IMG/VR virus record: IMGVR_UViG_2609459844_000001
Location: 1-14,560 of that record
DNA from: a virus
Taxonomy: Duplodnaviria > Heunggongvirae > Uroviricota > Caudoviricetes
Strand: one strand, 5' to 3'
Length of the DNA: 14,560 bases
The translations under genes and the position numbers were made by a program. A model generated the notes under the pieces. The model was given only the letters and a program-made list of their open reading frames with translations. It did no database searches and was not told the DNA's origin. Positions 1 through 14,218 of the stretch are shown here, in pieces. Positions within the stretch are counted from its first letter, which is position 1, and every line of letters starts with the position of its first letter.

Positions 1-1
1 G

Positions 2-1450
2 AAGGCAGACCTGAGCAAAGGGCAGTACGGCTGTGTCGGCCAGGGCTTACATATTGCCAAAAAACTGCTCCCGTATATCCCGAATAACGCGGGGATCCTG
101 CTGGTACCATGCTGTCGTGGTGGTTCGGCATTCACCAAGGGCGCGGAGGGGACATTCAGTGCGGACGCGGGGGCCAGCCAGGATTCGGCACGCTGGGGTG
201 TGGGTAAACCGTTATATCAGGACCTGATTGCGCGCACTAAAGCTGCATTACAGAAGAACCCGAAAAATGTGTTGCTGGCGGTGTGCTGGATGCAGGGAGA
301 GTTTGACATGAACGCCGCCACCTACGCACAGCAACCTGCGCTGTTTACAGCCATGCTGAAGCAGTTTCGTGCTGACCTCACTGTGTTTAACGCGCAGTGT
401 CATGGTGGTAGTGCTGTAAATGTGCCGTGGATTTGTGGTGACACGACGTATTACTGGAAAAATACATACGCTACCCAGTACGACACCGTGTACGGCGGGT
501 ATAAAAACAGGGAGAGTGAGGGCGTTTATTTTGTGCCCTTCATGACAGACGGTAACGGCGTCAATACCGCCACTAACGCACCGGCAGAAGATCCGGATAT
601 TCCGGCATCAGGATATTACGGTGCGGCATCGAGAACGAATGGAAACCAGGTATCATCAAACCGCCCGACACATTTCAGTTCATGGGCGCGCAGGAGCATT
701 ATTCCGGATCGTATGGCAACCGCTATTCTGAACGCAGCCGGGCGCACCTCAGCTTTCATCAGTGGTAAGGCACCGGAAATCAAACCCTCGCCCGGCGGCA
801 ACACGCCATCGGGGCCGTCTGAAGATGCATCCGTACGCACAATCTCCCTGTTGCCGACAGCCGGAGAGGCTGCTGCGCAGGGCTGGACCATTAAGGACGG
901 CGGAATTCAGTTGTCGGGTGGTGTATTTAAGATCGCCAAGCAGAGCAATAAAACCTGGTCCCTGATGCATCCGGTGGATGACGCAGTCTCCCTGCTGACA
1001 CGGGGTGGCAGACTGAGCTGTAAGTTTCGACTGTCAGGCGCACTGACCAACAACCAGTTCGGCCTGGGAATTTATCTGTATACCGATGTAGCGTTACCTG
1101 ACGTCGTGGCGATGGCCGGGACTGGTAACCCGTTCCTGATGTCGTTCTTCACCCAGACCACAGACGGCAAACTGAATCTGATGCATCACAAGAAAGCAGG
1201 AAACACAAAGTTGGGCGAGTTCGGGAATTACAGTAATGACTGGCAGACGCTGGAACTGGTGTTCACCGCCGGCAGTGCCACGGTTACTCCGAAACTGAAT
1301 GGAGTGGCTGGCCCGGCATTCCAGGTCATAAAAGACAGTCTGACACTGGGGCTGAATGCGCTGACGCTGACGGATATTACCAAAAATGCAGCGTATGGCG
1401 TTGAGATAGAAAGTCTGGTGCTGGAGATAAATGCACCGGCATCATCATAA
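2..1450 (+). CDS. Sialate O-acetylesterase-like protein (NanS-p-like), C-terminal part; the 5' end lies upstream of the window
   Basis: Frame 2 is open from position 2 to the stop at 1448-1450 (I translated 2-200 by hand and found no stops). Contains a W-x-QGE-x-D motif (CWMQGEFD) typical of SASA/SGNH sialate O-acetylesterases. Sits immediately upstream of the holin, as nanS-p does in Stx-type lambdoid phages. Family assignment is from memory, not a search. Confidence 0.6.
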   Translation, partial: KADLSKGQYGCVGQGLHIAKKLLPYIPNNAGILLVPCCRGGSAFTKGAEGTFSADAGASQDSARWGVGKPLYQDLIARTKAALQKNPKNVLLAVCWMQGEFDMNAATYAQQPALFTAMLKQFRADLTVFNAQCHGGSAVNVPWICGDTTYYWKNTYATQYDTVYGGYKNRESEGVYFVPFMTDGNGVNTATNAPAEDPDIPASGYYGAASRTNGNQVSSNRPTHFSSWARRSIIPDRMATAILNAAGRTSAFISGKAPEIKPSPGGNTPSGPSEDASVRTISLLPTAGEAAAQGWTIKDGGIQLSGGVFKIAKQSNKTWSLMHPVDDAVSLLTRGGRLSCKFRLSGALTNNQFGLGIYLYTDVALPDVVAMAGTGNPFLMSFFTQTTDGKLNLMHHKKAGNTKLGEFGNYSNDWQTLELVFTAGSATVTPKLNGVAGPAFQVIKDSLTLGLNALTLTDITKNAAYGVEIESLVLEINAPASS

Positions 1451-1600: not shown

Positions 1601-1816
1601 ATGTACCAGATGGAAAAAATCACAACAGGTGTGTCATACACCACGTCAGCGGTGGGAACGGGCTACTGGTTCCTGCAGTTGCTGGACAGGGTTTCCCCGT
1701 CTCAGTGGGCGGCAATAGGCGTGCTGGGGAGTCTGCTGTTTGGGCTGCTGACATATCTGACTAACCTGTATTTCAAAATCAGAGAGGACCGTCGTAAGGC
1801 TGCACGGGGAGAGTAA
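1601..1816 (+). CDS. S: Class II holin (phage 21 S21-type pinholin), 71 aa, with dual-start motif
   Basis: Translation [71 protein letters not shown] closely resembles the S21 pinholin as I recall it (two TM segments, charged C-terminus). Two Met codons at 1601 and 1610 (M-Y-Q-M) give the antiholin/holin dual start; GGGAGACGGGG lies just upstream. The track ORF starts further up at 1523, but that N-terminal extension has no holin-like sequence. Confidence 0.85.
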
Positions 1817-1820
1817 TTCA

Positions 1821-2627
1821 ATGACTCAAAACTATGAACTGATTGTGAAAGGGATCCGCAATTTTGAGAATAAAGTTACGGTAACTTTAGCGTTACGGGA
1901 CAAAAAACGCTTTGACGGTGAAATTTTTGACCTGGACATCTCGCTGGACCGTGTTGAAGGTGCCGCGCTGGAGTTTTATGAGGCAGCAGCCAGAAGGAGC
2001 ATCAGACAGGTCTTCCTGGATGTTGCTGCCGGGTTATGTGAAGGGGATGAGCTGTCGCCGGAAAAGCGCCCCATAATTTTAGAGGCGCAGGATGTGTTGA
2101 TAACCTACAAAGGAAAGCTACCGGGAAGAATTACTGGTTCTCTGAAGATGCCGCCGTCAACACTGCGGTCAGAAAAAGAGGCGTCTTGTCTGCAGTCTGA
2201 GTACTCCATTACGGTTAAAAGTGCCGGAGAGGAAGGAAATAAACGTTATTTTATTGCGTCTGCACCTGATAAAGATCAGGAATGGGAGTGTAACCGGCCA
2301 TCCTTTGTTGTATACGGAGATGGCGGGAAAATAACCATCTCAGAAAATGGGAAATTAACACCGCCATCGCACCAGCATAGTGAGGCGCTCATTGAATTTG
2401 CCATTGATTACCTGAAGAACAATAAAAAGCAGGGGCTGATGAAGCGCATTGGTCGTTGCATGGGATATCTGCAGGTAGCAGCTGAGATTGAAATGATGGC
2501 CAGTGGTGCTGACAATGATGCAGTTGTGCTGGAGGCTCTTCTGCGTGATTTTGATAATACGCCCTTTAAGAAAGCACCTGTTGACTGGATGCAGCCGGGG
2601 ATGACTTATCTGAAAGGGCGTATATAA
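1821..2627 (+). CDS. Hypothetical protein, 268 aa, unknown function (moron inserted between holin and endolysin)
   Basis: Clean 268-codon ORF whose ATG is 4 nt after the holin stop, with a GGGGAGAG Shine-Dalgarno-like sequence inside the holin 3' end (suggests translational coupling). No TM segment or signal peptide by eye. Visibly more AT-rich than flanking phage genes. I recognise no family. Confidence 0.6.
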   Translation: MTQNYELIVKGIRNFENKVTVTLALRDKKRFDGEIFDLDISLDRVEGAALEFYEAAARRSIRQVFLDVAAGLCEGDELSPEKRPIILEAQDVLITYKGKLPGRITGSLKMPPSTLRSEKEASCLQSEYSITVKSAGEEGNKRYFIASAPDKDQEWECNRPSFVVYGDGGKITISENGKLTPPSHQHSEALIEFAIDYLKNNKKQGLMKRIGRCMGYLQVAAEIEMMASGADNDAVVLEALLRDFDNTPFKKAPVDWMQPGMTYLKGRI

Positions 2628-2636
2628 GGTGGCTCG

Positions 2637-2951
2637 TTATCTGTTGCTGGATAATCGACTGAAGATGCGTTCTTTTTGTGTTTTTGCGTAATGATTGTCC
2701 CACTCACAATCAAGGTAGCTTAATTCTTCATTCAACCAGTTATTTATATTGGTCTTAATACGCATAAGCATGGGCTGTGTTAATGCTCTGGCGATAATGC
2801 CGAGAGTCACAGGTGTGAGATGTCCATACGGCTCAGCCTGAATGGATTTTACTGCATCGTGTTCTTGTGGGAGGAGTAAGAGGCACTCTGATTTTACCCG
2901 CTCATTTATGGCTTGCAGGCATAAATCATAATTATGTTGATCGTTATGCAT
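2637..2951 (-). CDS. Hypothetical protein, 104 aa, convergent partner of the 268-aa ORF
   Basis: Minus-strand ORF of 104 codons whose stop is about 10 nt from the stop of the 268-aa gene. AT-rich; no recognisable motif. Filling the gap between two same-strand lysis genes on the opposite strand is typical of an acquired moron. Confidence 0.45.
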   Translation of the reverse strand: MHNDQHNYDLCLQAINERVKSECLLLLPQEHDAVKSIQAEPYGHLTPVTLGIIARALTQPMLMRIKTNINNWLNEELSYLDCEWDNHYAKTQKERIFSRLSSNR

Positions 2952-3079
2952 GGTTAATCCTCTACTGAAATTGTCAGATATATTTCAGCCATCAGGAAAA
3001 ACGCCAGTGTCCTACCGCTGGCGGGCTGAAGATTTAACATATCCAGGGATTCGGAACCGATAAATCCTGATAAATATCC

Positions 3080-3613
3080 ATGAACACCAAAATCAAATAT
3101 GGCCTGTCGGCTGCCGTTCTGGCGTTGATTGCCATCGGTGCGCCTGCGCCTGATATTCTCGACCAGTTTCTGGATGAAAAAGAAGGTAACCACACAACGG
3201 CATACCGTGATGGTGCGGGTATCTGGACCATCTGCCGCGGTGCCACAATGGTGGATGGTAAACCTGTTATTCCGGGCATGAAACTGTCGAAGGAAAAATG
3301 CGACCAGGTTAATGCCATTGAACGGGATAAGGCGCTGGCATGGGTGGAGCGCAATATTAAAGTTCCACTGACCGAACCACAGAAAGCGGGTATAGCGTCA
3401 TTCTGTCCCTATAACATTGGCCCCGGTAAGTGTTTCCCGTCGACGTTTTATAAGCGGCTGAATGCTGGTGACCGCAGGGGAGCGTGTGAGGCGATTCGCT
3501 GGTGGATTAAGGACGGTGGCAGAGACTGCCGTATTCGTTCAAACAACTGCTACGGTCAGGTATCCCGTCGTGACCAGGAGAGCGCGCTGGCGTGCTGGGG
3601 TATCGACAGATAA
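3080..3613 (+). CDS. R: SAR endolysin (phage 21 R21-type lysozyme, T4-lysozyme-like fold)
   Basis: 177 aa. N-terminal Gly/Ala-rich weakly hydrophobic stretch (GLSAAVLALIAIGAPAP) consistent with a signal-anchor-release domain, then an E-x8-D-x5-T catalytic triad (E..GNHTTAYRD..GAGIWT) as in T4 lysozyme-type muramidases. Confidence 0.9.
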   Translation: MNTKIKYGLSAAVLALIAIGAPAPDILDQFLDEKEGNHTTAYRDGAGIWTICRGATMVDGKPVIPGMKLSKEKCDQVNAIERDKALAWVERNIKVPLTEPQKAGIASFCPYNIGPGKCFPSTFYKRLNAGDRRGACEAIRWWIKDGGRDCRIRSNNCYGQVSRRDQESALACWGIDR

Positions 3614-3701
3614 GCAGAATATTTTGCTGAAAAATAAGGCATGGCCACGCGGGCGGATAACACGAAATCCTGCGAACTGGCGAAACGTAAGTGAATAAAA
3701 G

Positions 3702-3745
3702 TAAAAACCCCGTTTGTTGGCAGCAAGCGGGGTTTTGTTTTTATG
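3702..3745 (+). terminator. Putative rho-independent terminator just after the endolysin gene
   Basis: AAAACCCCG ... CGGGGTTTT inverted repeat followed by TTTTGTTTTT on the + strand. The loop is long (about 15 nt), so stability is uncertain. Confidence 0.4.
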
Positions 3746-3807
3746 GCAGTAAGCTATGGGAGGCTGCCTTGATTGATTTTAGCAAACTGATTAGGGAGTT
3801 GCGACTC

Positions 3808-3903
3808 ATGATTAGTCAATTACCAAACTGGAAATTTTTGCTGGTCTGGAGCATCCCTTTTTTATGGGTAGTATCCCAGTTAATTGTGGCAATTAAGGGG
3901 TAG
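3808..3903 (+). CDS. Small hydrophobic peptide, 31 aa (speculative)
   Basis: ATG at 3808 preceded by AGGGAG at 9-nt spacing; translation MISQLPNWKFLLVWSIPFLWVVSQLIVAIKG is a single predicted TM helix. Too short to be confident. Confidence 0.2.
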   Translation: MISQLPNWKFLLVWSIPFLWVVSQLIVAIKG

Positions 3904-3905
3904 CT

Positions 3906-4037
3906 ATGTCAGACAAACTCATAACGCCGGCAAAGGTCCTGTGTGTGATTGTCGGTATTTCATTTTCACTAATGCTGGTTGCTCTTTTTCTGTCCCTCGC
4001 CTGGGTGATGTTGTCTTCGTCGGGGCTGCTGGGGTGA
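3906..4037 (+). CDS. Small membrane peptide, 43 aa (speculative); TM segment resembles the Rz N-terminal TM
   Basis: ATG at 3906 preceded by AAGGGG; translation MSDKLITPAKVLCVIVGISFSLMLVALFLSLAWVMLSSSGLLG. The KVLCVIVGISFSLMLVA stretch resembles [16 protein letters not shown] at the Rz N-terminus (4256). Confidence 0.3.
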   Translation: MSDKLITPAKVLCVIVGISFSLMLVALFLSLAWVMLSSSGLLG

Positions 4038-4156
4038 CAGTGACTGATGACATCAGCAGAGCGCTGGCTTTTGCTATTAAGTGGGTGGCTGTTGGTATTG
4101 CTGTGTCTCCGATGCTATATGGGCTGGCAAAACTGGTCATTGCGCTGAAATCGTGA
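4034..4156 (+). CDS. Small hydrophobic peptide, about 40 aa from a GTG start (speculative); paralogous to the next peptide
   Basis: Translation VTVTDDISRALAFAIKWVAVGIAVSPMLYGLAKLVIALKS. Shares the motif R-A-[LM]-A-F-A-I-[KR]-x-V-A-[VI] with the peptide at 4168-4254. Start codon uncertain. Confidence 0.25.
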   Translation: MTVTDDISRALAFAIKWVAVGIAVSPMLYGLAKLVIALKS

Positions 4157-4167
4157 ACTTTAAAAAG

Positions 4168-4254
4168 ATGAGTGCTGAACTTATTCGGGCAATGGCATTT
4201 GCCATTCGTATTGTGGCCATTGCTGTTCTGGTCTGGGCAATCCGTTGGTGGTGA
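4168..4254 (+). CDS. Small hydrophobic peptide, 28 aa (speculative); paralogous to the preceding peptide
   Basis: ATG at 4168; translation [28 protein letters not shown]. Ends 1 nt before the Rz start. Weak RBS. Confidence 0.25.
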
Positions 4255-4255
4255 T

Positions 4256-4723
4256 ATGAACCGTGTTCTGTGTGTGGTGATTATTGTCATGCTGGTGGCC
4301 TGTGGTGCGCTTAGTCTGGGGCTGAATCATTACCGTGATAACGCCATTACCTACAAAGCCCAGCGCGACAAAAATGTCAGAGAACTGAAGCTGGCGAACG
4401 CGGCAATTACTGACATGCAGATGCGTCAGCGTGATGTTGCTGCGCTCGATGCAAAATACTCGAGGGAATTAGCCGATGCGAGAGCTGAAAATGAAACTCT
4501 TCGCGCTGACGTTGCCGCTGGTCGTAAGCGCCTGCGTATCAACGCCACCTGTCCAGGTCCCGTGCGTGAAGCCACCGGCACCGCCCGCGTGGATAATGCA
4601 ACCGGCCCCCGACTGGCAGACACCGCTGAACGGGATTATTTCACCCTCAGAGAGCGGCTGATGACGATGCACAAGCAACTGGAAGGGGCGCAGGAATATA
4701 TCCGTACTCAGTGCCTGAAATAA
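4256..4723 (+). CDS. Rz: Spanin inner-membrane subunit (i-spanin)
   Basis: 155 aa from the ATG at 4256: N-terminal TM ([21 protein letters not shown]), then a charged coiled-coil-like periplasmic region ([26 protein letters not shown]). Embedded Rz1 in the +1 frame. Track ORF 4172-4723 is the same frame with a non-native N-terminal extension. Confidence 0.85.
4491..4661 (+). CDS. Rz1: Spanin outer-membrane lipoprotein subunit (o-spanin), embedded in Rz
   Basis: [15 protein letters not shown] lipoprotein signal with lipobox V-S-A-C, followed by a proline-rich mature region ([18 protein letters not shown]). Entirely inside Rz in a different frame, the classic Rz/Rz1 arrangement. Confidence 0.8.
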
Positions 4724-5346: not shown

Positions 5347-5532
5347 TTACTTAATTATGTAATTCATACCCGAACTCTCTGTTGACAGCCTTCTTCTGCA
5401 GGCTTCAATAACCCACGCTGAAAAGTTTCCTGAACCTTTCAGATCAAGAGCGATGTTAATTTGTTCAATCATCTGGTTTGGAAATCGGATGTTGCGGGTT
5501 GTTGTTCTGCGGGTTCTGTTCTTTGATGACAT
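5347..5532 (-). CDS. Small Arc/MetJ-like (ribbon-helix-helix) protein, probably DUF3950 family (YlcI/YnfO-like), 61 aa
   Basis: Translation ...TRNIRFPNQMIEQINIALDLKGSGNFSAWVIEACRRRL... has a basic N-terminus, a short beta-strand (NIRFP) and two helices, which is an RHH-like pattern. A similar small gene sits next to cos/terminase on the opposite strand in E. coli lambdoid prophages (recollection, not searched). Confidence 0.5.
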   Translation of the reverse strand: MSSKNRTRRTTTRNIRFPNQMIEQINIALDLKGSGNFSAWVIEACRRRLSTESSGMNYIIK

Positions 5533-5699
5533 AATGTTTCCCCATATTCAGTGTTGCTGATTTGTATTATCAGAAGTTGCTTTTACGTTAATTTGACGCA
5601 GATCAATTAATACGATACCTGCGTCATAATTGATTATTTCTCGTGGTTTGATGGCGTACACACATGTTGTGATAAACCTTATATAGATGATAATAATTA

Positions 5700-5920
5700 T
5701 CATTTCGTGGGTCCTTTCCGGCGATCCGACCGGTTACGGGGCGGCGACCTCGCGGGTTTTCGCTATTTATGAAAATTTTCCGGTTTAAGGCGTTTCCGTT
5801 CTTCTTCGTCATAACTTAATGTTTTTATTTAAAATACCCTCTGAAAAGAAAGGAAACGACAGGTGCTGAAAACGGGCTTTTTGGCCTCTGTCGTTTCCTT
5901 TCTCTGTTTTTGTCCGTGGA
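5700..5920. other. cos: Lambda-type cohesive end site (cosQ-cosN-cosB); 12-nt cohesive end GGGCGGCGACCT at 5738-5749
   Basis: 5738-5749 reads GGGCGGCGACCT, followed by CGCGGGTTTTCGCTATTTATGAAAATTTTCCGG..., which matches the left end of the lambda genome as I remember it. 5711-5737 (GTCCTTTCCGGCGATCCGAC.GGTTACG) matches the lambda right end (cosQ side). cosB R-element repeats include a 15-bp perfect inverted repeat, GAAAGGAAACGACAG at about 5850-5864 and CTGTCGTTTCCTTTC at about 5890-5904. Confidence 0.85.
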
Positions 5921-5927
5921 ATGAACA

Positions 5928-5990
5928 ATGGAAGTCAACAAAAAGCAGCTGGCTGACATTTTCGGCGCGAGTATGGGCGCTGGCCAATGA
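5928..5990 (+). pseudogene. nu1: Terminase small subunit nu1, 5' stub only (16 native codons, then a deletion junction and a stop)
   Basis: ATGGAAGTCAACAAAAAGCAGCTGGCTGACATTTTCGG.GCGAGTAT matches the lambda nu1 start (MEVNKKQLADIFGAS); similarity ends at about 5975 and the frame stops at 5988-5990. Confidence 0.7.
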
Positions 5991-5991
5991 C

Positions 5992-6696
5992 ATGAACTGC
6001 AGCGCAGGTCAGCTGCTTGCCAGTGCCGCCTCCCGGCGTCTGGTCACGCAGACCGCCCGGACAGGCTCCATCGGCGTCAAGGGCAAATACACCATGACCG
6101 GTGAAGCCTTCGATCCGGTTGAGGTGGATATGGGCCGCAGTGCGGCGAACAACATCACGCAGTCCGGCGGCACGGAGTGGAGCAAGCGTGACAAGTCCAC
6201 GTATGACCCGACCGACGATATCGAAGCCTACGCGCTGAACGCCAGCGGCGTGGTGAATATCATTGTGTTTGACCCGAAAGGCTGGGCGCTGTTCCGTTCC
6301 TTCAAAGCCGTCAGGGAGAAGCTGGATACCCGTCGCGGCTCTCATTCCGAACTGGAGACAGCGGTGAAAGACCTGGGCAAAGCGGTGTCTTATAAGGGAA
6401 TGTATGGCGATGTGGCCATCGTCGTGTATTCCGGACAGTACGTGGAAAACGGCGTCAAAAAGAACTTCCTGCCGGACAACACGATGGTGCTGGGTAACAC
6501 TCATGCACGCGGTCTGCGCACCTATGGCTGCATTCAGGATGCGGATGCACAGCGCGAAGGCATTAACGCCTCTGCCCGTTACCCGAAAAACTGGGTGACC
6601 ACCGGCGATCCGGCGCGTGAGTTCACCATGATTCAGTCAGCACCGCTGATGCTGCTGGCTGACCCTGATGAGTTCGTTTCCGTACAACTGGCGTAA
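5992..6696 (+). pseudogene. E: Major capsid protein E, N-terminally truncated (lambda-like sequence from about 6079 to the native stop)
   Basis: From KGKYTMTGEAFDPVEVDMGRS to the C-terminal ...LMLLADPDEFVSVQLA the translation is near-identical to the lambda gpE C-terminal region as I recall it. The sequence upstream of about 6079 is not E-like, and the stub of nu1 lies just upstream in another frame. Track ORF 5863-6696 is the same frame from a GTG. Confidence 0.8.
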
Positions 6697-6737: not shown

Positions 6738-7133
6738 ATGACGAAAGATGAACTGATTGCCCGTCTCCGCTCGCTGGGTGAACAACTGAACCGTGATATC
6801 AGCCTGACGGGGACGAAAGAAGAACTGGCGCTCCGTGTGGCAGAGCTGGAAGAAGAGCTTGATGACACGGGCGACACTGCCGGTCAGGATACCCCTCTCA
6901 GCCCGGAAAATGTGCTGACCGGACATGAAAATGAGGTTGTATCAGCGCAGCCGGATACCGTGACTGATACGGCTGATCTGGTCACGGTTGTGGCACTGGT
7001 GACGCTGCATACTGATGCACTTCACGCCACGCGGGATGAGGCTGTGGCATTTGTGCTGCCGGGAACGGCGTTCCGTGTCTCTGCCGGTGTGGCAGCTGAA
7101 ATGACAGAGCGCGGCCTGGCCAGAATGCAATAA
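6738..7133 (+). CDS. FI: DNA-packaging / head assembly protein FI
   Basis: MTKDELIARLRSLGEQLNRD...ERGLARMQ is near-identical to lambda gpFI; 41-nt gap after E, as in lambda. The track ORF starts 13 codons upstream at 6699. Confidence 0.9.
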   Translation: MTKDELIARLRSLGEQLNRDISLTGTKEELALRVAELEEELDDTGDTAGQDTPLSPENVLTGHENEVVSAQPDTVTDTADLVTVVALVTLHTDALHATRDEAVAFVLPGTAFRVSAGVAAEMTERGLARMQ

Positions 7134-7144
7134 CGGGAGGCGCT

Positions 7145-7498
7145 GTGGCTGATTTCGATAACCTGTTCGATGCTGCCATTGCCCGCGCCGATGAAACGAT
7201 ACGCGGGTACATGGGAACGTCAGCCACCATTACATCCGGTGAGCAGTCCGGTGCTGTGATACGTGGTGTTTTTGATGACCCTGAAAATATCAGCTATGCC
7301 GGACAGGGCGTGCGCGTTGAAGGCTCCAGCCCGTCCCTGTTTGTCCGGACTGATGATGTGCGGCAGCTGCGGCGCGGCGACACGCTGACCATCGGTGAGG
7401 AAAACTTCTGGATAGACCGGATTTCGCCGGATGATGGCGGAAGCTGTCATCTCTGGCTTGGGCGGGGCGTACCGCCTGCCGTTAACCGTCGCCGCTGA
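7145..7498 (+). CDS. FII: Head-tail joining protein FII
   Basis: MADFDNLFDAAIARADETIRGYMG...GRGVPPAVNRRR is near-identical to lambda gpFII (117 aa). Confidence 0.9.
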   Translation: MADFDNLFDAAIARADETIRGYMGTSATITSGEQSGAVIRGVFDDPENISYAGQGVRVEGSSPSLFVRTDDVRQLRRGDTLTIGEENFWIDRISPDDGGSCHLWLGRGVPPAVNRRR

Positions 7499-9095
7499 AA
7501 GGGGGATGTATGGCCATAAAAGGTCTTGAGCAGGCCGTTGAAAACCTCAGCCGTATCAGCAGAACGGCGGTGCCCGGTGCCGCCGCAATGGCCATTACCC
7601 GATCATTCGCATTGTCATTCGCTGCTTTAACTGCCTTCGGTGTCGCGGCAAGCGTTTCAGACGTACTGTTTGTCGCACTGCTGAGCTGTACTATCCCCTT
7701 TTTCGTCGTGCTCGCATCCTCAAGCGCCACGGCGGATGCAATATCCTCTGCCCGTTTTGCCGCTGTCTCAGCGCGCGTTGCTGCGGATTCTGCCGTACTT
7801 TTGCTCTGTGCTGCCGCTGTCGCACTGCCAGCAGCCTCTGTCGCCTTTGTGGATGCCGTCGTGGCGCTGCTCTTCGCTGCTGACGCCTGTCTGGTCGCCT
7901 CATCTTTTGAAGCAGACGCCGATGATGCCGATGACGCCGCCGAACTGGCGGACGATGCCGCTGCCGTTTTTGAGGATTCTGCGCTGGTTTCCGACGCTTT
8001 CGCGTTCGTTTCGGATGTCTTCGCTGAGGAAGCAGACCTCGCTGCTGCGCTGGCCTGTTCAGTGGCTTCGCCAGTCTTCGTTGTGGCTGTTGAAGCGGAT
8101 GATGCGGCGCTTTCTGCCGATTTTCCGGCGGCGGTGGCACTGACTGAGGCCTGCCCGGCACTTGTTGATGCGGCACTGGCGGACGACGCAGCCGCTGTTT
8201 TTGAATCTGCCGCAGCTGAGGCACTCTGTCCCGCTGCCGTTTCAGAAGACCTGGCGTTCGTCTCGGACGTTTTGGCCGCCTTCGCAGAATTTGCTGTCGC
8301 CGTTGCCGAGGAAGCTGCGCTGCTGGCGCTCGAGGCTGCGCTCGTTTCTGATGATTTTGCCGCCTCTTTTGAAGCCGACGCATCCCGGGCTGAGGTGGCA
8401 GCTTCTGACGCTTTCGTGGTCGCGGTGGATGCAGAAGTGGCTGCTGATTGTTGTGACGCTGCGGCATTCGTTTCTGACGTTTTCGCCGCAGCGGCACTGG
8501 TGGCCGCCGCGCTTTTTGAGGACTCTGCAGCGGCAGCACTTTTTTCCGCTTCAGTGGCCTTTGTTGATGCCGTTTCTGCGCTGGAAGACGCTGACTGAGC
8601 CGACGACGCGGCCTGTCCGGCTGACGTGCTGGCTGCGCGTGCTGAGCCTGCAGCATCAGTCGCATGGGTTGCCGCCTCACGGGCTGATGTGCTGGCATCG
8701 CCGGCTGACTTCTTCGCGGCTGCCGTGTTCTGTGCCACTGCGGACGCGTTACGCTCCACCTCTTCCACCATCACTTCAAAACGGCGCAGTGCCTCCGGTC
8801 GGACATCATCCTCCGTCATGGCACCGAGAAAATCATTCAGCGTACCTGGTCTGGAACCTTCATAGACGGTAATGGTCCCGGCATGTGAAGGCGGAAAACC
8901 TTCAACCAGCAGGGTGACGCTGTACTGACCATGCTCAACATCCATGCTGTAACGTCCGGCTTCATCCGGATTTTCAGAGGCCACCGTGTTCACCACCACC
9001 GTGCTGCTGGTTCGTCTGGCCTTCAGCACAATGGTGCAGTTCTGTACTGGTTTTCCTGTGCCATCTTTAAGCACGCCAGAAATTTTTACTGTCAT
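7482..9095 (-). CDS. stf: Side tail fiber protein (lambda Stf / prophage StfR-like), N-terminal about 510 aa; 3' end replaced by junction sequence
   Basis: N-terminus MTVKISGVLKDGTGKPVQNCTIVLKARRTSSTVVVNTVASENPDEAGRYSMDVEHGQYSVTLLVEGFPPSHAGTITVYEGSRPGTLNDFL and the following Ala/Ser/Thr-rich repeat region match lambdoid side tail fibers. The last about 30 codons (VMAIAAAPGTAVLL...) are the reverse translation of the Z fragment and FII 3' end, so the distal receptor-binding portion is missing. Confidence 0.8.
   Translation of the reverse strand: MTVKISGVLKDGTGKPVQNCTIVLKARRTSSTVVVNTVASENPDEAGRYSMDVEHGQYSVTLLVEGFPPSHAGTITVYEGSRPGTLNDFLGAMTEDDVRPEALRRFEVMVEEVERNASAVAQNTAAAKKSAGDASTSAREAATHATDAAGSARAASTSAGQAASSAQSASSSAETASTKATEAEKSAAAAESSKSAAATSAAAAKTSETNAAASQQSAATSASTATTKASEAATSARDASASKEAAKSSETSAASSASSAASSATATANSAKAAKTSETNARSSETAAGQSASAAADSKTAAASSASAASTSAGQASVSATAAGKSAESAASSASTATTKTGEATEQASAAARSASSAKTSETNAKASETSAESSKTAAASSASSAASSASSASASKDEATRQASAAKSSATTASTKATEAAGSATAAAQSKSTAESAATRAETAAKRAEDIASAVALEDASTTKKGIVQLSSATNSTSETLAATPKAVKAANDNANDRVMAIAAAPGTAVLLIRLRFSTACSRPFMAIHPPFSGDG
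7510..7597 (+). pseudogene. Z: Tail protein Z, 5' fragment (first 29 codons) ending at a rearrangement junction
   Basis: ATGGCCATAAAAGGTCTTGAGCAGGCCGTTGAAAACCTCAGCCGTATCAGC...GCAATGGCCATTA matches the lambda Z start (MAIKGLEQAVENLSRIS), 11 nt after FII as in lambda. Similarity stops at about 7597, where minus-strand tail-fibre coding sequence begins. Confidence 0.75.
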
Positions 9096-9246: not shown

Positions 9247-9846
9247 TCAGAAACGGTATCCGATACCAACAATAAATGCATCCGTTCGCCAGTCGCCACT
9301 ACCGGAACCTTCATAAGCAAGGTCAATGGTCACGGATTCGGTCGGATTAAACTGCACGCCAGCCCCCCACGCCAGAGACGTGTTGCTGTGGCGACCGTCA
9401 TCACTTCCGGTCAGCACATCGTGCGTTTTCCCCTTGTTGTCAGTTACGCGGAGATAATCCCCGGAGAAAGTCGAAATACGGCTGTAAGCCACACCCGCCA
9501 TCGCATACGCGCTGAACCATTCATTCACGCGCACAGACGGCCCCGCCATTACGCTGAACCAGCGGTTACGAACGGAATCTTCATGCCAGCGGGTATCGCT
9601 GTAACGGGTCAGCTGGCGATTCTTGTCTCCTGCATAGCTGAATGACGTCACCAGCCCCAGTGTGTCCGTAAACTCATAACGGTATTTCACGTTAATCCCG
9701 TTCAGATCATCACTGCCGGGGACGTTCGTCGAGGCATGAAGATACCCCGCGCTCAGCGTGGACTGATGTTCAGACGCCCATGCAGGCGCACCGGATACGG
9801 CCAGACAAATGGCTGCGGACAAAATTGCTGCACAAACTTTACGCAT
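9247..9846 (-). CDS. lom: Outer membrane protein Lom (Ail/Lom family beta-barrel)
   Basis: 199 aa with signal peptide (MRKVCAAILSAAICLAVSGAPAWA) and C-terminal ...DLAYEGSGSGDWRTDAFIVGIGYRF matching lambda Lom. Position between J and stf as in lambda. Confidence 0.85.
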   Translation of the reverse strand: MRKVCAAILSAAICLAVSGAPAWASEHQSTLSAGYLHASTNVPGSDDLNGINVKYRYEFTDTLGLVTSFSYAGDKNRQLTRYSDTRWHEDSVRNRWFSVMAGPSVRVNEWFSAYAMAGVAYSRISTFSGDYLRVTDNKGKTHDVLTGSDDGRHSNTSLAWGAGVQFNPTESVTIDLAYEGSGSGDWRTDAFIVGIGYRF

Positions 9847-9916: not shown

Positions 9917-11072
9917 TCAACGAATACTGATGCCGGAAGCGGCTTTTTTGGTCACAATCACCGTACAGTCGGTGATATTGCCTGCCCCCTGATTGCCTTT
10001 CTGGAAAATCTTAAACTCCAGAGTGACGCTACCACCACCACTAGGCATATCAATAACTGCACTGTAACTACCGGGAATGGCCCCTTTAGTTTCTCTGGAT
10101 GCGATTAATACGCCGTTTTTGCGAACTTCAAAACCATAACCCGTGTATCGCGTGCCTCCTGGGTTATTTCCGCTCCCCGGATCGTCATACGCTATACCGT
10201 TAAAAATAATGGGCGGAATAATAATCTGGCGGTCAAAGTTATGATCATCGCTGATGGTGACTGTAACCGTACCGTTTGGTGTTTCCGTGTTACCCCACGT
10301 ACCGACTTTTTTCGGGAAGGCTTTTGATACAGCTTTAACGAAATCCCCTCTGACCTGGGTCGCCTCCAGCATGCCCTTAATCGTACAGTTCTGGTTAATC
10401 TTGACATTGTTGAGCGTTCCTGAGTTCGCATTCACACTGCCACTGATATCCGCATTTTTAGCGGTCAGCTTTCCGTCTGATGTCAGGGAAAATACCGGAG
10501 GACTGCCACCGCTGGTAATGGTGGGGGCCGTCAGGCGCTTCAGGAACACGTCGTTCATGAATATCTGGTTGCCCTGCGCCACAAACATCGGCGTTTCATT
10601 CCCGTTTGCCGGGTCAATAAACGCGATACGGTTAGCGGCAACCAGAAACTGGCTCAGCTTGCCTTCCTCCGTGTCCTCCATTCCTGTCACCCTTTGAGGT
10701 GTTTTCCACCAGTGCCTGTACACCGAAGGTAAAGCGCAGACGGTCGATGTTTGCAGACGTAATGGTGCGGGTGATCGGCGTGTCATATTTCACTTCCGTA
10801 CCCAGCACCGTCTCGGAGCCGGAGGATTCAAACCCCTCCGGCGGTGTCTGCTCCTGCTCACCGGCACGGAACACCACCGTGACACCGGAGATGTTGGTAT
10901 TCCCCTCAGTGTCCAGCACCGGCGTACTGTTCAGCAGCACGCTTTTTAATCCATCCACCGGACCTTCAACCGGCCCTTCGCTGATGGCATCGATCACACT
11001 CAGCAACTGCGTGGACTTCAGGTTGTCCTTCGCTTCGCGCGGGGTATGCCCCTTACTGCTTCCTTTACCCAT
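9917..11072 (-). pseudogene. J: Tail tip / host specificity protein J with a large internal deletion and frameshift
   Basis: ORF 10632-11072 (MGKGSSKGHTPREAKDNLKSTQLLSVIDAISEGPVEGPVDGLK...TSKGDRN) matches the J N-terminus for about 131 aa and then runs out of frame. ORF 9917-10786 matches the J C-terminal receptor-binding region from [29 protein letters not shown]... to the end. The two homology blocks abut at about 10680 in different frames. Confidence 0.8.
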
Positions 11073-11132: not shown

Positions 11133-11804
11133 TCAGCGACCAATCACCACAACCTGACCACCGTCCCCTTCGTCTGCCGTGCTGATCTCCTGAGAAACCA
11201 CGCGTGACCCCACGCGCATTTCCCCGTACAGAACGGGCAGAACATTGCCCTGGGCAACCATATTATCCAGCGAAGAAAAATAGGTGTTCTGTTTGCCGTT
11301 ATCTGTTGCCTGTGTGCGGGGAGTTCTGGCTTTCGGTGCCAGCATCTGCGCCACACCACCGAGCACCATACTGGCACCGAGAGAAAACAGGATGCCGGTC
11401 ATCCCACCGGCCCCAATGGCTGCCCCCCATGCTGCAAGGGTGACTCCGGCGGTAAAGAATGATCCGGCAATGGCGGCAGCCCCCAGGACAATCTGGAATA
11501 CGCCACCTGACTTGGCCCCGGCGACTCTGGGAACAATATGAATCACAGCGCCATCAGGCAGAGTCTCATGTAACTGCGCCGTTAACCCGGACGTGCTGAC
11601 GTCCCGCCCGGCAATCCGTACCTGATACCAGCCGTCGCTCAGTTTCTGACGAAACGCCGGGAGCTGTGTGGCCAGTGCGCGGATGGCTTCAGCCCCCGTT
11701 TTCACACGAAGGTCGATGCGGCGGCCAAATCGTTGCAAATCCCCGTAAAGGCAGATGCGCGCCATGCCCGGTGACGCCAGAGGGAGTGTGTGCGTCGCTG
11801 CCAT
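11133..11804 (-). CDS. I: Tail tip assembly protein I
   Basis: 223 aa, MAATHTLPLASPGMARICLYGDLQRFGRRIDLRVKTG..., near-identical to lambda gpI; overlaps K by 103 nt and is followed by a 60-nt gap before J, both as in lambda. Confidence 0.9.
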   Translation of the reverse strand: MAATHTLPLASPGMARICLYGDLQRFGRRIDLRVKTGAEAIRALATQLPAFRQKLSDGWYQVRIAGRDVSTSGLTAQLHETLPDGAVIHIVPRVAGAKSGGVFQIVLGAAAIAGSFFTAGVTLAAWGAAIGAGGMTGILFSLGASMVLGGVAQMLAPKARTPRTQATDNGKQNTYFSSLDNMVAQGNVLPVLYGEMRVGSRVVSQEISTADEGDGGQVVVIGR

Positions 11805-12445
11805 TTGTCGGTGTACCTCTCTCGTTTGCTCAGTTGTTCAGGAATATGGTGCAGCAGCTCGCCGTCGCCGCAGTAAATGGCGGCGTGATTCGGCACCGAT
11901 GAACCAAAACAGCACAGCAGCACATCGCCCGGCTGTGCCGCTGACAACGGCACCTGATACAGCCCCGTCGCCTCCAGATTATCCAGATAGAGATTCTGAC
12001 CGTGACGCCACCAGTCATCCTCACGATGAAAGTCCGGCATCTCAATCCCCGCCAGATGATAAGCATCCCGGAACAGTGTGTAACAGTCCGTCACACCGTG
12101 CTCAAAGCGCCGCCCGGTGAGATGCGGCACACAGCGGAACTTATGAATCGTCCCCCGGCAGACCAGCCACCACGGCAAATCACTCTGCACCTGCAGCCGC
12201 CGGTCGGCCTCACTCAGCCAGGGCAGACCACCGGGGTGGCTGTGGACCAGCGCCACAATCTCACCCTGCATTTCTGCCTGCAGCCAGTCTTCCGGCGACA
12301 TACGGAAATACGCCTCCGGCTCACCGGAAATATTCATGCAGGGAAAATATCTTTCCCCCTCCGGCGTTCTCACCACGAAGCCGCACGACTCCGCTGGCGC
12401 ACATCGCCGGGCGTGCGCCAGAATCGCTGATTCTGTCTCTGTCAT
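11702..12445 (-). CDS. K: Tail tip assembly protein K (MPN/JAMM plus NlpC/P60 domains)
   Basis: Contains the JAMM motif H-S-H-x7-S-x2-D (ALVHSHPGGLPWLSEAD) and a C-terminal Cys/His region. The ORF from the ATG at 12445 (MTETESAILAHARR...) is 247 aa. The classical lambda annotation begins 48 codons later (MSPEDW..., at 12301, 199 aa); I prefer the longer start because the MPN fold needs the upstream residues. Confidence 0.85.
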   Translation of the reverse strand: MTETESAILAHARRCAPAESCGFVVRTPEGERYFPCMNISGEPEAYFRMSPEDWLQAEMQGEIVALVHSHPGGLPWLSEADRRLQVQSDLPWWLVCRGTIHKFRCVPHLTGRRFEHGVTDCYTLFRDAYHLAGIEMPDFHREDDWWRHGQNLYLDNLEATGLYQVPLSAAQPGDVLLCCFGSSVPNHAAIYCGDGELLHHIPEQLSKRERYTDKWQRRTHSLWRHRAWRASAFTGICNDLAAASTFV

Positions 12446-12449
12446 GGGA

Positions 12450-13148
12450 TTACTGCGAAAGTTTGTTAATGGAAAGGAAGCCGCCAAAGTTGCCGACGTT
12501 ATTGCGGAACTTACAGCCACCCAGGCATTTGCTGCATTTATCCTTCGTGATATCGGACGTCGGCTGGTCATATTCATCCGCGACAGCCGGACCGCTATAA
12601 CCGCACTCGTCACCGCGATAGGTCCAGGTGCAGGTGTTGGCCAGCATGATACGTCCCGGAAAAACAGCGCCATCCGTTTCCGTCGGCGTGGACAGTACAA
12701 AGGAGGCACTCACCGCGCTCAGTTCGCTGCACTGCTCGATGCGCCAGCGGCTGATCACCTCCTGCTCCGGATCGGCGTCACTGTTTCCGTTGACGAAGTT
12801 CACCGCATCCAGAAAACGGGCGTAAACCTTACGCCGGACCACCGTTCCGCCGACCAGACTCTGCAGATCTTCCGCCATCCCGGTGACCATACCGTACAGG
12901 TTAGAAACCGTCAGCGTGGGGCGCGTACTGGTGCCTTTGCCATTCAGTTCAAAACCGCTCCCCTGAATGGGATACGGCTGATACTGTCGCCCCTGCCAGG
13001 TGACCGGCTCACCTTTTTCGTTCTGCTCATTACAGAAAAAATAACGTTCTCCACCGACCTCTGTCAGGTCGATTTCCCAGAGCACCACGCTGGCCGACTG
13101 CTCCGCACGGGTGCATTCATTCAGTGTTTCCTGCCGGATATCCTGCAT
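12450..13148 (-). CDS. L: Minor tail protein L
   Basis: 232 aa, [72 protein letters not shown]..., matching lambda gpL; 1-nt overlap with M as in lambda. Confidence 0.9.
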   Translation of the reverse strand: MQDIRQETLNECTRAEQSASVVLWEIDLTEVGGERYFFCNEQNEKGEPVTWQGRQYQPYPIQGSGFELNGKGTSTRPTLTVSNLYGMVTGMAEDLQSLVGGTVVRRKVYARFLDAVNFVNGNSDADPEQEVISRWRIEQCSELSAVSASFVLSTPTETDGAVFPGRIMLANTCTWTYRGDECGYSGPAVADEYDQPTSDITKDKCSKCLGGCKFRNNVGNFGGFLSINKLSQ

Positions 13149-13477
13149 CAGTTCACCACCTGTTCAAACTCTGCGCTGAACTCAACACGCAGCATACTGA
13201 CCCGCGACGACCATTTTGCGCAGGTCACCTTTATCTGCCGCCACTCATAAGGCGGCGTCCACAGAAAGGATTTCCAGCCCCCGTGCTCTTCCAGAAACGA
13301 CTCCAGTACCGTGGCCTCCTCACGGGGGACAGAAAGCGTCACGCTGTACGTTTTCAGGTTGGCATTCAGCCCGGCAGGCGCTCGCTGGGAATAGCCATCA
13401 CCAAAGCGCACCTTTCTTACAGAAGGGGCCGAAGCCACATCCATACCGGGTTTCACTTTCCAGCGGAAGGTTTTCAT
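13148..13477 (-). CDS. M: Minor tail protein M
   Basis: 109 aa, [50 protein letters not shown]..., matching lambda gpM. Confidence 0.9.
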
Positions 13478-13815
13478 CGTCCACCTCCGGAGAACAGGCC
13501 ACCATCACGCATCTGTGTCTGAATTTCATCACGGGCACCCTTGCGGGCCATGTCATACACCGCCTTCAGAGCAGCCGGACCTATCTGCCCGTTCGTGCCG
13601 TCGTTGTTAATCACCACATGGTTATTCTGCTCAAACGTCCCGGACGCCTGCGACCGGCTGTCAGCCAGACTGCCCGGTGTCAGGTCTTTAACTTTAGCCA
13701 GACGCGACCAGTCAACGTCTGAAAGCGGGTTCGCATAAGGGTCGCCGCTCCCGTTATAAACCCACAGGGTGGTTCCGGCACCTTTCACCGGTATTGCTGG
13801 ATTTGGTACAGGCAT
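13474..13815 (-). CDS. Chimeric in-frame fusion: major tail protein V N-terminus (about 48 aa) joined to the tape measure protein H C-terminus (about 65 aa)
   Basis: From the ATG at 13815, [48 protein letters not shown] matches the lambda gpV N-terminus and then diverges. The ORF ends with an ATGA overlap onto M, exactly as the lambda H/M junction does, so the 3' part is taken to be the H 3' end. U-to-V spacing (7 nt) is lambda-like. The deletion removed most of V, all of G/T and most of H. Junction at about 13665-13675. Confidence 0.7.
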
Positions 13816-13822
13816 ATCGTCC

Positions 13823-14218
13823 TCACATTTCATAGGTAATGACATAAGTCAGATCGGCAGAACTCCACAGGCCCGCATCATCGTCGCGCCGGTAGTCATA
13901 GCCGCTGGCCACCATACTGGTGATCAAATCTGACAGTGCCGGGACATCGCTCATCACCGGATAAATCCGGGACTCCATCCACGAATCCAGCTCTGAATCC
14001 GGCACCTGAGCAGGCAGGAAAACTTCAATATGCAGCTCCGCCTGCCAGGTATCACTGTCCAGCTCTTCGCCCGTGTATTCAGCGCCGGTGAGATAAACGG
14101 CAATTGCCGGAAAATCCGCCTCATCAAAAACAGCGGGGCGACCATCAAAAAGCGTCGCCCCGGTGTCATGCTTCTCCAGTGCATCCAGTACGGCTGCACG
14201 GAGTTCAGTATGTTTCAT
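13823..14218 (-). CDS. U: Tail tube terminator protein U
   Basis: 131 aa, [67 protein letters not shown]..., near-identical to lambda gpU. Confidence 0.9.

What the first reader, a model, noticed from the sequence alone, without database searches (positions are those of the whole stretch)
5700..6080. Intact cos site followed by a nu1 stub fused to the 3' part of E: terminase-to-capsid deletion
cosQ/cosN/cosB and the first 16 codons of nu1 are lambda-like. Lambda similarity then stops at about 5975 and resumes at about 6079 inside E, about 40% into the coding sequence. The element therefore lacks terminase (nu1, A), portal (B), protease/scaffold (C, nu3), D and the E N-terminus. It cannot make capsids or package DNA, yet it keeps a cos site that a helper phage terminase could cut. 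About 100 bp between the two homology blocks (5976-6078) is of origin I cannot place.
Basis: partly seen in the sequence, partly recalled or inferred. Interest (0 to 1): 0.5.

Follow-up and report, generated by a model that had tools for sequence, protein, structure and literature searches.

The report
Shredded lambda-like prophage keeping cos

Summary
Window 5709-5927 carries lambda-type cosQ, cosN and cosB. Codons 1-15 of nu1 follow, and lambda E resumes at codon 137 (6079).

The "unplaceable" 5971-6079 is codons 156-191 of gene C (S49 protease/scaffold). It is 96% identical to lambda and 100% identical to many E. coli prophages. So there are two junctions, with 4-bp and 3-bp microhomology, and they remove 6,201 bp. 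C' is in frame with 'E. The nu1 stub ends after 20 codons.

The window is the whole contig JNPF01000030.1 of E. coli 2-156-04_S3_C1. An intact prophage in E. coli AF39 (about 50 kb, yecE side) matches every segment at about 100%. That comparison shows three further junctions: Z nt 88 joined to an inverted stf, a 2,258-bp deletion inside J, and a 3,807-bp V-H deletion.

The nu1'-C'-'E structure recurs in two independent metagenome assemblies, so it is not a misassembly.

Verdict: a defective lambdoid prophage of the DLP12/Qin/Sp4 kind with a cos site that looks usable. Cutting or mobilisation by a helper phage is plausible but untested.

One side observation is unexplained. The Z nt 88 breakpoint recurs with different partners in at least five other prophage remnants.

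The parts
1..1450 (+). 3' part of a nanS-p-like SASA carbohydrate esterase gene, cut by the contig end; first gene of the late operon visible here
   Evidence: AF39 annotation transferred through the 100% match. Pfam SASA/DUF6645 in the gene table.
1601..4723 (+). Lysis cassette: class II holin 1601-1816, DUF1327 ORF 1821-2627, lysozyme 3080-3613, Rz-type lysis protein 4256-4723. An orphan antisense ORF lies at 2637-2951.
5347..5532 (-). YlcI/YnfO (DUF3950) small gene upstream of cos, as in DLP12 and Qin
5709..5715 (+). cosQ (GGGTCCT, lambda 48473-48479)
   Evidence: Alignment to lambda. The element's name and role are from established lambda literature, recalled from memory.
5739..5750 (+). 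cosN cohesive-end 12-mer GGGCGGCGACCT (lambda 1-12)
   Evidence: identical to lambda.
5788..5908 (+). cosB region (R3, IHF site I1, R2, R1; about lambda 50-170). It differs from lambda by one G>A and a 1-nt deletion, both between R2 and R1.
   Evidence: The sub-site boundaries are from memory of the lambda literature, not tested.
5928..5990 (+). nu1 stub ORF. Codons 1-15 are nu1 (to 5974). Five out-of-frame codons read from C, then TGA.
5971..5974 (.). Junction J1 (nu1 codon 16 | C codon 156). Microhomology GTAT; 4,649 bp lost.
5971..6079 (+). Fragment of gene C (S49 protease/scaffold), codons 156-191, including the NCSAGQ serine motif
   Evidence: Pfam Peptidase_S49 hit.
6077..6079 (.). Junction J2 (C codon 191/192 | E codon 136/137). 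Microhomology TCA; 1,552 bp lost. C' and 'E are in frame.
6079..6696 (+). 3' 60% of the major capsid gene E (codons 137-341 plus stop). It is part of ORF 5863-6696. An in-frame ATG at 5992 lies 1 nt after the nu1-stub TGA.
6738..7498 (+). Intact FI (6738-7133) and FII (7145-7498)
7510..7597 (+). Z stub, nt 1-88. Junction J3 (TA, 7596-7597) joins it to an inverted stf.
7598..9095 (-). N-terminal ~1.5 kb of the side tail fibre gene stf, inverted relative to the head genes
   Evidence: Pfam phage_tail_N.
9247..9846 (-). Intact lom (Ail/Lom outer-membrane protein)
9917..11072 (-). J in two pieces: N-terminal 131 codons (10682-11072) and C-terminal fragment (9917-10681). Junction J4 (AT, 10680-10681) removes 2,258 bp and shifts the frame.
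11133..13477 (-). Intact I, K, L and M tail genes, now antisense to the late transcript
13474..13815 (-). In-frame V(1-45)-H(C-terminal 68 aa) fusion. Junction J5 (GT, 13679-13680) removes 3,807 bp (most of V, all of G and T, most of H).
13823..14560 (-). U (13823-14218) and the 3' part of Z (from nt 234), cut by the contig end

Best explanation
The region is the late operon of a recently decayed lambda-like prophage of E. coli 2-156-04_S3_C1. The window is the entire 14,560-bp contig JNPF01000030.1.

**Shown.** Its parent resembled the intact ~50-kb prophage that E. coli AF39 carries next to yecE. At least five illegitimate-recombination junctions with 2-4 bp of microhomology have dismantled the morphogenetic genes. 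Two are in the head block: nu1 codon 16 to C codon 156, and C codon 191 to E codon 137. Three are in the tail block: Z nt 88 to an inverted stf, one inside J, and V to H. Together the four deletions (J1, J2, J4, J5) remove 12,266 bp.

**What survives.** The Q-dependent late leader genes survive (nanS-p esterase and the lysis cassette). So do a complete cosQ-cosN-cosB site, FI, FII, lom, and some now promoter-less tail genes.

**Inferred function.** The element cannot make terminase, portal, protease/scaffold, D, a full capsid protein, a tail tube, tape measure or J, so on its own it is dead as a virus.

**Inferred behaviour of cos.** Because cos is unchanged, a co-resident or infecting lambda-type phage with matching Nu1/A could bind cosB and nick cosN here. 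That would create a double-strand end that stimulates recombination with the helper. At best, packaging would initiate rightwards. Productive transduction would need a second cos in the same orientation within a headful.
For: - **Parent comparison.** The window matches the AF39 prophage in six colinear or inverted blocks, with 0 mismatches over about 11.5 kb and 5 mismatches in 7596-10681.
- **Junctions.** Base-resolved junctions have GTAT, TCA, TA, AT and GT overlaps. Five of five junctions with at least 2 bp of overlap has p about 1e-4 for random joins.
- **Middle segment.** It is gene C.
- **cos.** It is identical to lambda in all named elements.
- **Independent confirmation.** The nu1'-C'-'E junction pair is reproduced in two independent metagenome contigs.
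- **Source.** Contig and strain were identified.
- **Recurrent decay.** Independent head-gene deletions with other breakpoints occur in SCZE5 (Qin-like), MEI1O2-23 and BS74R-D, and in IMG/VR loci L022 and L024. This route of decay is common.
- **Helper availability.** The cosB/nu1 5' sequence is at least 99% identical in 1,345 records of complete E. coli genomes, so compatible terminases are common.
- **Literature.** DLP12 keeps lysis genes, cos and nu1, and the authors propose that terminase cutting at cos in both lambda and DLP12 explains the recombination they saw clustered next to cos (PMC3945230). Sakai Sp4, which lacks an intact terminase, is packaged, probably by the Sp14 terminase acting on a near-identical cos (PMC2669165).
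Against: - J3, J4 and J5 are seen only in this one short-read draft contig.
- The rest of the prophage (int, immunity, replication, att ends) and the rest of the genome were not visible. Chromosomal integration, inducibility and the presence of a helper are therefore unknown.
- No experiment shows that this cos is cut.
- The contig ends 146 bp before the point where a simple inversion and a fold-back duplication would differ.
- AF39 is a close relative, not the proven parent.
Confidence: 0.85

Rival explanations
1. The five junctions are not independent decay steps. They are the scar of one replication-based template-switching event (fork stalling/MMBIR-like) that skipped along the prophage and switched strand once.
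For: - Read left to right, every jump goes forward in the direction of travel, with one strand switch at Z nt 88.
- All junctions have 2-4 bp of microhomology.
- A 105-bp island of C is retained between two jumps.
- There are no substitutions relative to AF39 over about 11.5 kb, so all changes are recent.
- Other remnants (L022, L284) are shredded in the same way.
Against: - L201 and L024 share one head deletion but only L024 has the Z nt 88 break, which shows stepwise accumulation in a sister element.
- The metagenome contigs carrying J1+J2 differ by SNPs and end before J3, so linkage of all five junctions is unproven.
- Zero substitutions in 11.5 kb is compatible with centuries of divergence at ordinary E. 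coli rates (inference).
Confidence: 0.2
2. The contig, or part of it, is an assembly or library chimera and the genome really holds an intact prophage.
For: - The window is one whole contig of a 2014 draft assembly.
- J3-J5 products are on record only from this contig.
- No complete E. coli genome, GTDB representative, IMG/VR contig or JGI contig scanned for an exact junction pattern carries one: J1 (all four collections), J2 (complete genomes), J3 (complete genomes, GTDB representatives) or J5 (JGI). J4 was not searched as DNA.
Against: - J1 and J2 are reproduced together in two unrelated metagenome assemblies made by other assemblers.
- Repeat-driven misassembly joins at long shared repeats, not at 2-4 bp overlaps (inference).
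- A contig running uninterrupted through five junctions implies there is no competing intact copy in the read set (inference).
- Other genomes, including complete ones, have comparable shredded remnants.
Confidence: 0.04
3. It is a functional helper-dependent satellite (cos-type PICI-like element, or a natural 'cosmid') maintained because it hijacks helper capsids.
For: - cos is intact while all packaging and capsid genes are lost.
- If the rest of the prophage matched AF39, the size after deletions would be about 37.6 kb. That is close to the lower lambda packaging limit (from memory).
Against: - The 14.5 kb visible holds no PICI hallmark (int/alpA/pri-rep, Rpp-type terminase redirector); Pfam tables.
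- Useless debris remains (Z', J', V-H fusion, antisense tail genes).
- Near-100% identity to an intact phage points to very recent damage, not an adapted lineage.
- The junction set is rare: one isolate and two metagenomes among about 15 billion proteins.
Confidence: 0.04
4. The C'-'E open reading frame is expressed and acts as a dominant-negative capsid fragment against incoming lambdoid phages.
For: - C' and 'E are in frame.
- The nu1 stub keeps its native start, and its TGA (5988-5990) lies 1 nt before an in-frame ATG (5992). That is a classic arrangement for translational coupling, read directly from the sequence.
- The ORF sits in the Q-dependent late transcript.
Against: - There is no evidence of expression.
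- The fragment lacks the N-arm, the E-loop and part of the P domain of the HK97 fold, so it probably misfolds (inference).
- The allele is rare.
- Other remnants break E at different points, which argues against selection for this product.
Confidence: 0.03

Closest known systems
DLP12 (qsr') and Qin cryptic lambdoid prophages of E. coli K-12
   Same: Both are chromosomal lambdoid remnants that keep the lysis cassette, ylcI/ynfO, a lambda-type cos and at least the 5' end of the nu1 homologue (nohD/nohA), while head and tail genes are deleted. DLP12's region around cos recombines with infecting lambda, and its genes work in lambda (PMC3945230). Qin-like and DLP12-like variants with partial head blocks are seen in SCZE5 and BS74R-D.
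   Different: In this element nu1 is cut after 15 codons, whereas nohD/nohA are full length. A 36-codon C scrap and the 3' 60% of E remain. The tail block is inverted and doubly deleted. The late region is Stx-phage-like (nanS-p), and the closest intact relative sits at yecE. The damage is very recent, with about 100% identity to an intact phage.
Defective prophage pool of E. coli O157:H7 Sakai (e.g. Sp4, packaged by the Sp14 terminase)
   Same: These are lambdoid prophages with disrupted nu1 or head genes but a usable cos, whose DNA is still packaged through complementation by co-resident prophages (PMC2669165).
   Different: Sp4 is damaged by an IS insertion and still excises and replicates. 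Here the damage is IS-free microhomology deletion, and excision and replication capacity are unknown.
cos-type phage-inducible chromosomal islands (E. coli PICIs such as EcCICFT073; PMC6092414 appeared in the search but was not read)
   Same: A chromosomal element that carries a helper-compatible cos and no terminase or capsid genes of its own.
   Different: PICIs are compact adapted islands with their own integrase, regulator, replicon and packaging-redirection genes. None of these is in the window, and this element is visibly phage debris.
Lambda doc particles / in situ packaging from a non-excised prophage cos (Sternberg and Weisberg 1975; recalled from memory, not checked here)
   Same: Terminase can start at a chromosomal cos and package rightwards into adjacent DNA.
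   Different: That phenomenon was shown for an intact lambda prophage. Particles with a single cohesive end are defective. It has not been tested for this element.

Membership tests
Lambda-type (lambdoid) phage late region | Lambda-type cos with cosQ, cosN and cosB immediately upstream of nu1 | tested here: met
   lambda 48473-48479 and 1-190 align with 2 differences in cosB. The 12-nt cohesive end is identical.
Lambda-type (lambdoid) phage late region | Lambda gene order and homology (S-R-Rz-cos-nu1...C...E-FI-FII-Z-U-V...H-M-L-K-I-J-lom-stf) | tested here: met
   All surviving pieces map to this order, allowing for four deletions and one inversion junction.
Defective (cryptic) prophage | Loss of genes essential for particle formation relative to an intact relative | tested here: met
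   12,266 bp are missing: nu1 (from codon 16), A, W, B, D, G and T, most of C, V and H, the N-terminal part of E (codons 1-136), and the middle of J.
Defective (cryptic) prophage | Integrated in the host chromosome | not testable with these tools
   The contig holds no host flank. The intact relative is integrated between yecE and yecD in AF39.
Defective (cryptic) prophage | No infectious particles produced on induction | not testable with these tools
   Needs an experiment.
Functional cos (substrate of lambda-specificity terminase) | Sequence integrity of the nicking site, the Nu1-binding R sites, the IHF site and cosQ | tested here: met
   The site is also 100% identical to the cos of the intact AF39 prophage.
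Functional cos (substrate of lambda-specificity terminase) | Actual cleavage or packaging by a helper terminase | not testable with these tools
   Only analogy is available: PMC3945230 and PMC2669165.
Phage-inducible chromosomal island (cos-type PICI) | Own integrase, AlpA-type regulator, primase-replicase and packaging-redirection gene; no phage structural debris | tested here: not met
   None of these appears among the called genes or Pfam hits of the 14.5-kb contig, and structural gene fragments abound. Sequence outside the contig was not seen.

The most novel reading that the evidence does not exclude
The wreck was not produced by random decay. A site-preferential, microhomology-guided rearrangement process may repeatedly break lambdoid morphogenetic operons at the same nucleotides.

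The break after Z nt 88 (...AATGGCCATTA|, at the edge of a 10-bp palindrome and just before a 6-bp GC-rich stem) is used here. It is also used, with different partners and in both deletion and inversion orientation, in at least five other independent remnants. The C codon 156 break is shared with BS74R-D.

If this is real, it points to a defined stall or cleavage site (a structure, a bound protein or a nuclease) that drives rapid disarmament of prophages while leaving cos and the lysis genes.
Probability: 0.25. Interest if true: 0.55.

Novelty: new member of a known kind. Interest (0 to 1): 0.2.

Why it matters
By itself this adds one more defective lambdoid prophage to a very large and well-described class, so it changes nothing conceptually. 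It has three modest uses.

1. It is a clean, dated example of how fast the structural operon is dismantled. There are five junctions but almost no point mutations relative to an intact sibling.
2. It shows that cos and the lysis/nanS-p leader survive when everything between them and the tail fibres is shredded. This fits the view that defective prophages remain recombination and packaging partners for active phages.
3. The recurrent breakpoint in gene Z, if confirmed genome-wide, would give a testable handle on the mechanism of illegitimate recombination in prophage decay.

Tried and rejected
- **Exact-junction scans.** J1 was absent from IMG/VR, the GTDB representative genomes and JGI metagenomes. 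J3 was absent from the GTDB representatives and J5 from JGI metagenomes.
- **BLAST of junction-spanning pieces against 5,426 complete E. coli genomes.** J1, J2 and J3 were not present as single pieces.
- **Look-up of the 537-aa stf' ORF.** Not on record, because the gene caller split it.
- **Literature search for the accession.** Only a false match to JAJNPF. The strain name found nothing relevant.
- **Rfam at gathering thresholds.** Nothing.
- **Promoter and terminator scan of 4700-7700.** No more sites than in shuffled sequence.
- **Single-strand folding at the donor sides of J1, J2 and J3.** Nothing exceptional (z from +0.5 to -1.5), so a hairpin-stall explanation of the Z hot spot is not established.
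- **Test for a mirror-image break on the left side of the AATGGCCATT palindrome.** Only SNP variants were found.
- **Mechanisms considered for the Z hot spot and not supported by the sequence.** No IS element lies at any junction. There was no convincing match by eye to a Hin/Gin/Pin crossover site, to the gyrase cleavage consensus, to cosN or to an att core. These comparisons were made from memory and are not tests.
- **Literature search for a described hot spot.** Nothing found.
Full report
**What is at 5700-6080**

- The sequence aligns with the joined ends of phage lambda.
- cosQ (GGGTCCT) is at 5709-5715.
- The cohesive-end 12-mer GGGCGGCGACCT is at 5739-5750.
- Lambda bp 1-133 are identical.
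- The remainder of cosB up to the nu1 start (ATG 5928) differs from lambda only by one substitution and a 1-nt deletion between R2 and R1.
- nu1 homology runs to 5974, which is 15 codons plus one base.
- Lambda E homology resumes at 6079, which is lambda 6543 and codon 137 of 341.

- Window 5971-6079 is lambda 4883-4991. That is codons 156-191 of gene C (the S49 protease/scaffold gene), at 96.3% identity.
- It is 100% identical to the S49 peptidase gene of several hundred complete E. coli genomes.
- Pfam finds Peptidase_S49 followed by Phage_cap_E in ORF 5863-6696.
- The structure is therefore nu1'-C'-'E with two junctions: J1 (overlap GTAT, 5971-5974) and J2 (overlap TCA, 6077-6079).
- C' and 'E are in the same frame.
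- The nu1 stub is in another frame and ends after 20 codons at TGA 5988-5990.
- That stop lies one base before an in-frame ATG at 5992. This arrangement would allow translational coupling, but I have no evidence that the product is made.

**Where the window comes from**

- The exact product of the J stub (10632-11072, minus strand) is on record from one contig, JNPF01000030.1 of assembly GCA_000703525.1. Its length is exactly 14,560 bp.
- The proteins are named as from Escherichia coli 2-156-04_S3_C1.
- The window is therefore a whole contig of a draft genome, and its ends are contig ends.

**The intact relative and the full extent of damage**

- E. coli AF39 (NZ_OZ547136.1) carries a prophage of about 50 kb between yecE (integrase side) and yecD.
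- The window matches that prophage block by block.

| Window | AF39 position | Orientation | Mismatches |
|---|---|---|---|
| 1-5974 | L001 8001-13974 | forward | 0 |
| 5971-6079 | inside C | forward | 0 |
| 6077-7597 | E codon 136 to Z nt 88 | forward | 0 |
| 7596-10681 | stf N-terminal 1.5 kb, lom, J 3' end | reversed | 5 (one in stf, four in lom) |
| 10680-13680 | J 5' end, I, K, L, M, H 3' end | reversed | 0 |
| 13679-14560 | V 5' end, U, Z from nt 234 | reversed | 0 |

- Base-level inspection gives five junctions.

| Junction | Join | Overlap | Loss |
|---|---|---|---|
| J1 | nu1 codon 16 to C codon 156 | GTAT | 4,649 bp |
| J2 | C codon 191 to E codon 137 | TCA | 1,552 bp |
| J3 | Z nt 88 to inverted stf | TA | inversion-type join |
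| J4 | internal to J | AT | 2,258 bp, frameshifting |
| J5 | V to H | GT | 3,807 bp, in frame |

- A comparison with a second intact prophage (YZ_2_1) gives the same picture.
- Five of five junctions with at least 2 bp of overlap would be expected about once in 10,000 for random joins. These are microhomology-mediated events, not arbitrary cut-and-paste.

**Is it an assembly artefact?**

- For J1 and J2, no. The exact 277-aa C'-'E product is also encoded on two ENA metagenome contigs from different assemblies.
- Those contigs are colinear with window 5156-7269 and 5202-7236 across cos, both junctions, FI and part of FII, with 1-2 SNPs.
- For J3-J5 I found no second source.
- Two arguments favour them, both by inference only. 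Overlaps of 2 bp are not what repeat-collapse misassembly produces. A contig running through all five junctions implies the reads hold no competing intact copy.

**How common this kind of damage is**

- None of J1, J2 or J3 occurs in 5,426 complete E. coli genomes.
- The 277-aa protein is alone in its 90% cluster.
- The same class of damage with other breakpoints is frequent:
  - SCZE5, Qin-like: nu1' | A' | E...Z' | 'lom.
  - MEI1O2-23: A' | 'E.
  - BS74R-D, DLP12-like: in-frame nu1-C fusion and E' | stf.
  - IMG/VR loci L022, L024/L201 and L284, several of which carry three junctions each.
- K-12 DLP12 and Qin are the textbook cases.

**What it does**

- Shown: the element lacks terminase, portal, most of the protease/scaffold gene, D, the N-terminal 40% of E, the tail tube, G/T, the tape measure and an intact J.
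- Shown: after J3 the surviving tail genes lie antisense to the late transcript.
- Inferred: it cannot form particles.
- Shown: cos is unchanged relative to the intact sibling and relative to lambda in every named element.
- Shown: the adjacent cosB/nu1 5' sequence is at least 99% identical in 1,345 records of complete E. coli genomes, so compatible terminases are common.
- Inferred from published work: such a cos can be recognised by a helper terminase.
  - For DLP12, half of the sequenced recombination junctions with lambda lie right at cos, which the authors suggest reflects terminase cuts in lambda and in DLP12, and the DLP12 lysis and nu1 genes function in lambda (PMC3945230).
  - In O157 Sakai, Sp4 lacks an intact terminase but is packaged, probably by the Sp14 terminase on a near-identical cos (PMC2669165).
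- Not shown: any cutting or mobilisation here.
- Lambda packaging runs from cos towards nu1 and E, and it needs a second cos to finish (established knowledge). A single chromosomal cos would therefore mostly give recombinogenic ends or defective particles.
- If the unseen part of the prophage matched AF39, the element would be about 37.6 kb. That is near the lower packaging limit as I remember it.

**Origin of the junctions**

- Sequential independent deletions are the simplest reading.
- Stepwise accumulation is visible in a sister pair: L201 and L024 share a head deletion, and only L024 has the Z break.
- A single template-switching event cannot be excluded. All jumps go forward along the direction of travel, there is one strand switch, and there are almost no point differences from AF39.
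- I give the single-event reading about 0.2.

**An unexplained side observation: the Z nt 88 breakpoint**

- The left breakpoint of J3 lies after ...GCAATGGCCATTA (Z nt 88; AF39 L001 21798).
- The same base is the breakpoint of Z stubs that have different right-hand partners:
  - 'lom in SCZE5, present in five complete genomes.
  - An inverted e14-like early region in TW14425, which is IMG/VR locus L018. The head genes are intact there.
  - The start of L in L022.
  - An unknown sequence in L024.
  - H in L284, one base to the left.
- The left flanks differ from each other by 2-4%, and the window's is identical to the intact AF39 allele. The events are therefore independent.
- The overlap is usually TA, and several partners read TA-N-CCG like the native TAACCG.
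- The site is the edge of a 10-bp palindrome (AATGGCCATT) and immediately precedes a 6-bp GC-rich stem. Predicted folding is not exceptional, and no mirror-image break was found.
- The C codon 156 break of J1 coincides within 2 bp with the nu1-C fusion of BS74R-D. That hit was partly selected for proximity, and no further case was found.
- I regard the Z hot spot as probably real but mechanistically unexplained.

**Verdict**

- The object is a new member of a well-known kind, and its interest is low.

Noticed in passing
window 7510-7597 (J3 at 7596-7597); also L004 ~11755, L018 1724, L022, L024 9913, L284, L309 ~9139: The Z gene is broken after nt 88 (...AATGGCCATTA|) in this window. At least five other independent prophage remnants break at the same base, or one base away, each joined to a different partner, in both deletion and inversion orientation. 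Control positions gave none. This looks like a hot spot of illegitimate recombination, with unknown mechanism.
   Followed up: partly
window 5971-5974; L014 (BS74R-D) ~5574: The right breakpoint of J1 in gene C (GTA|TGGGCG, codon 156) coincides within 2 bp with the breakpoint of an in-frame 452-aa nu1-C fusion in E. coli BS74R-D, which is annotated there as 'terminase small subunit'. The left partners differ (nu1 codon 16 versus about codon 169). No further case was found in IMG/VR.
   Followed up: partly
window 7596-14560: The tail block is inverted relative to the head genes and carries two more deletions: one internal to J (frameshift) and V-G-T-H (an in-frame 113-aa V-H fusion). The contig ends in Z at nt 234, 146 bp short of the point that would distinguish a simple inversion from a fold-back duplication.
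   Followed up: partly
window 5988-5994: The stop codon of the 20-aa nu1 stub and an in-frame ATG of the C'-'E ORF are arranged as TGAcATG. This layout is typical of translational coupling, so a 234-aa C'-'E protein could be made from the native nu1 ribosome-binding site.
   Followed up: no
window 5818 and 5874; L008, L009: The two metagenome contigs that share J1+J2 differ from the isolate at 5818 (A>C, inside the IHF site I1 of cosB). One also differs at 5874. The deletion allele has therefore circulated long enough to pick up SNPs.
   Followed up: partly
window 1821-2627: A 268-codon ORF has a DUF1327 (YdfR-like) domain only in its first 100 residues. The identical sequence in AF39 is annotated as a truncated YdfR pseudogene, so it is either a long C-terminal extension or a fusion inside the lysis cassette.
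   Followed up: no
window 2637-2951 (minus strand): An orphan 104-aa gene with no Pfam hit lies antisense between the holin/DUF1327 genes and the lysozyme gene. It may be a moron inserted in the lysis cassette.
   Followed up: no
window 7510-8598 (plus strand): A 362-codon ORF starts with the 29 codons of Z and then stays open through the antisense strand of stf. It is most likely a by-product of the repetitive stf sequence. The gene caller split stf' here (82 aa called instead of 537).
   Followed up: no
window 9346-9489: Four of the only five differences from AF39 cluster within 143 bp of lom, which suggests a small recombination patch rather than point mutation.
   Followed up: no
L309 (E. 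coli TW14425, NZ_CP127265.1 1366273-1385073): A lambdoid element has a complete head and packaging module, but Z is cut at nt 88 and joined to an inverted e14-like immunity region, with a Dsr1 defence gene nearby. It is either a tail-less, head-only arrangement or the scar of an inter-prophage inversion.
   Followed up: no
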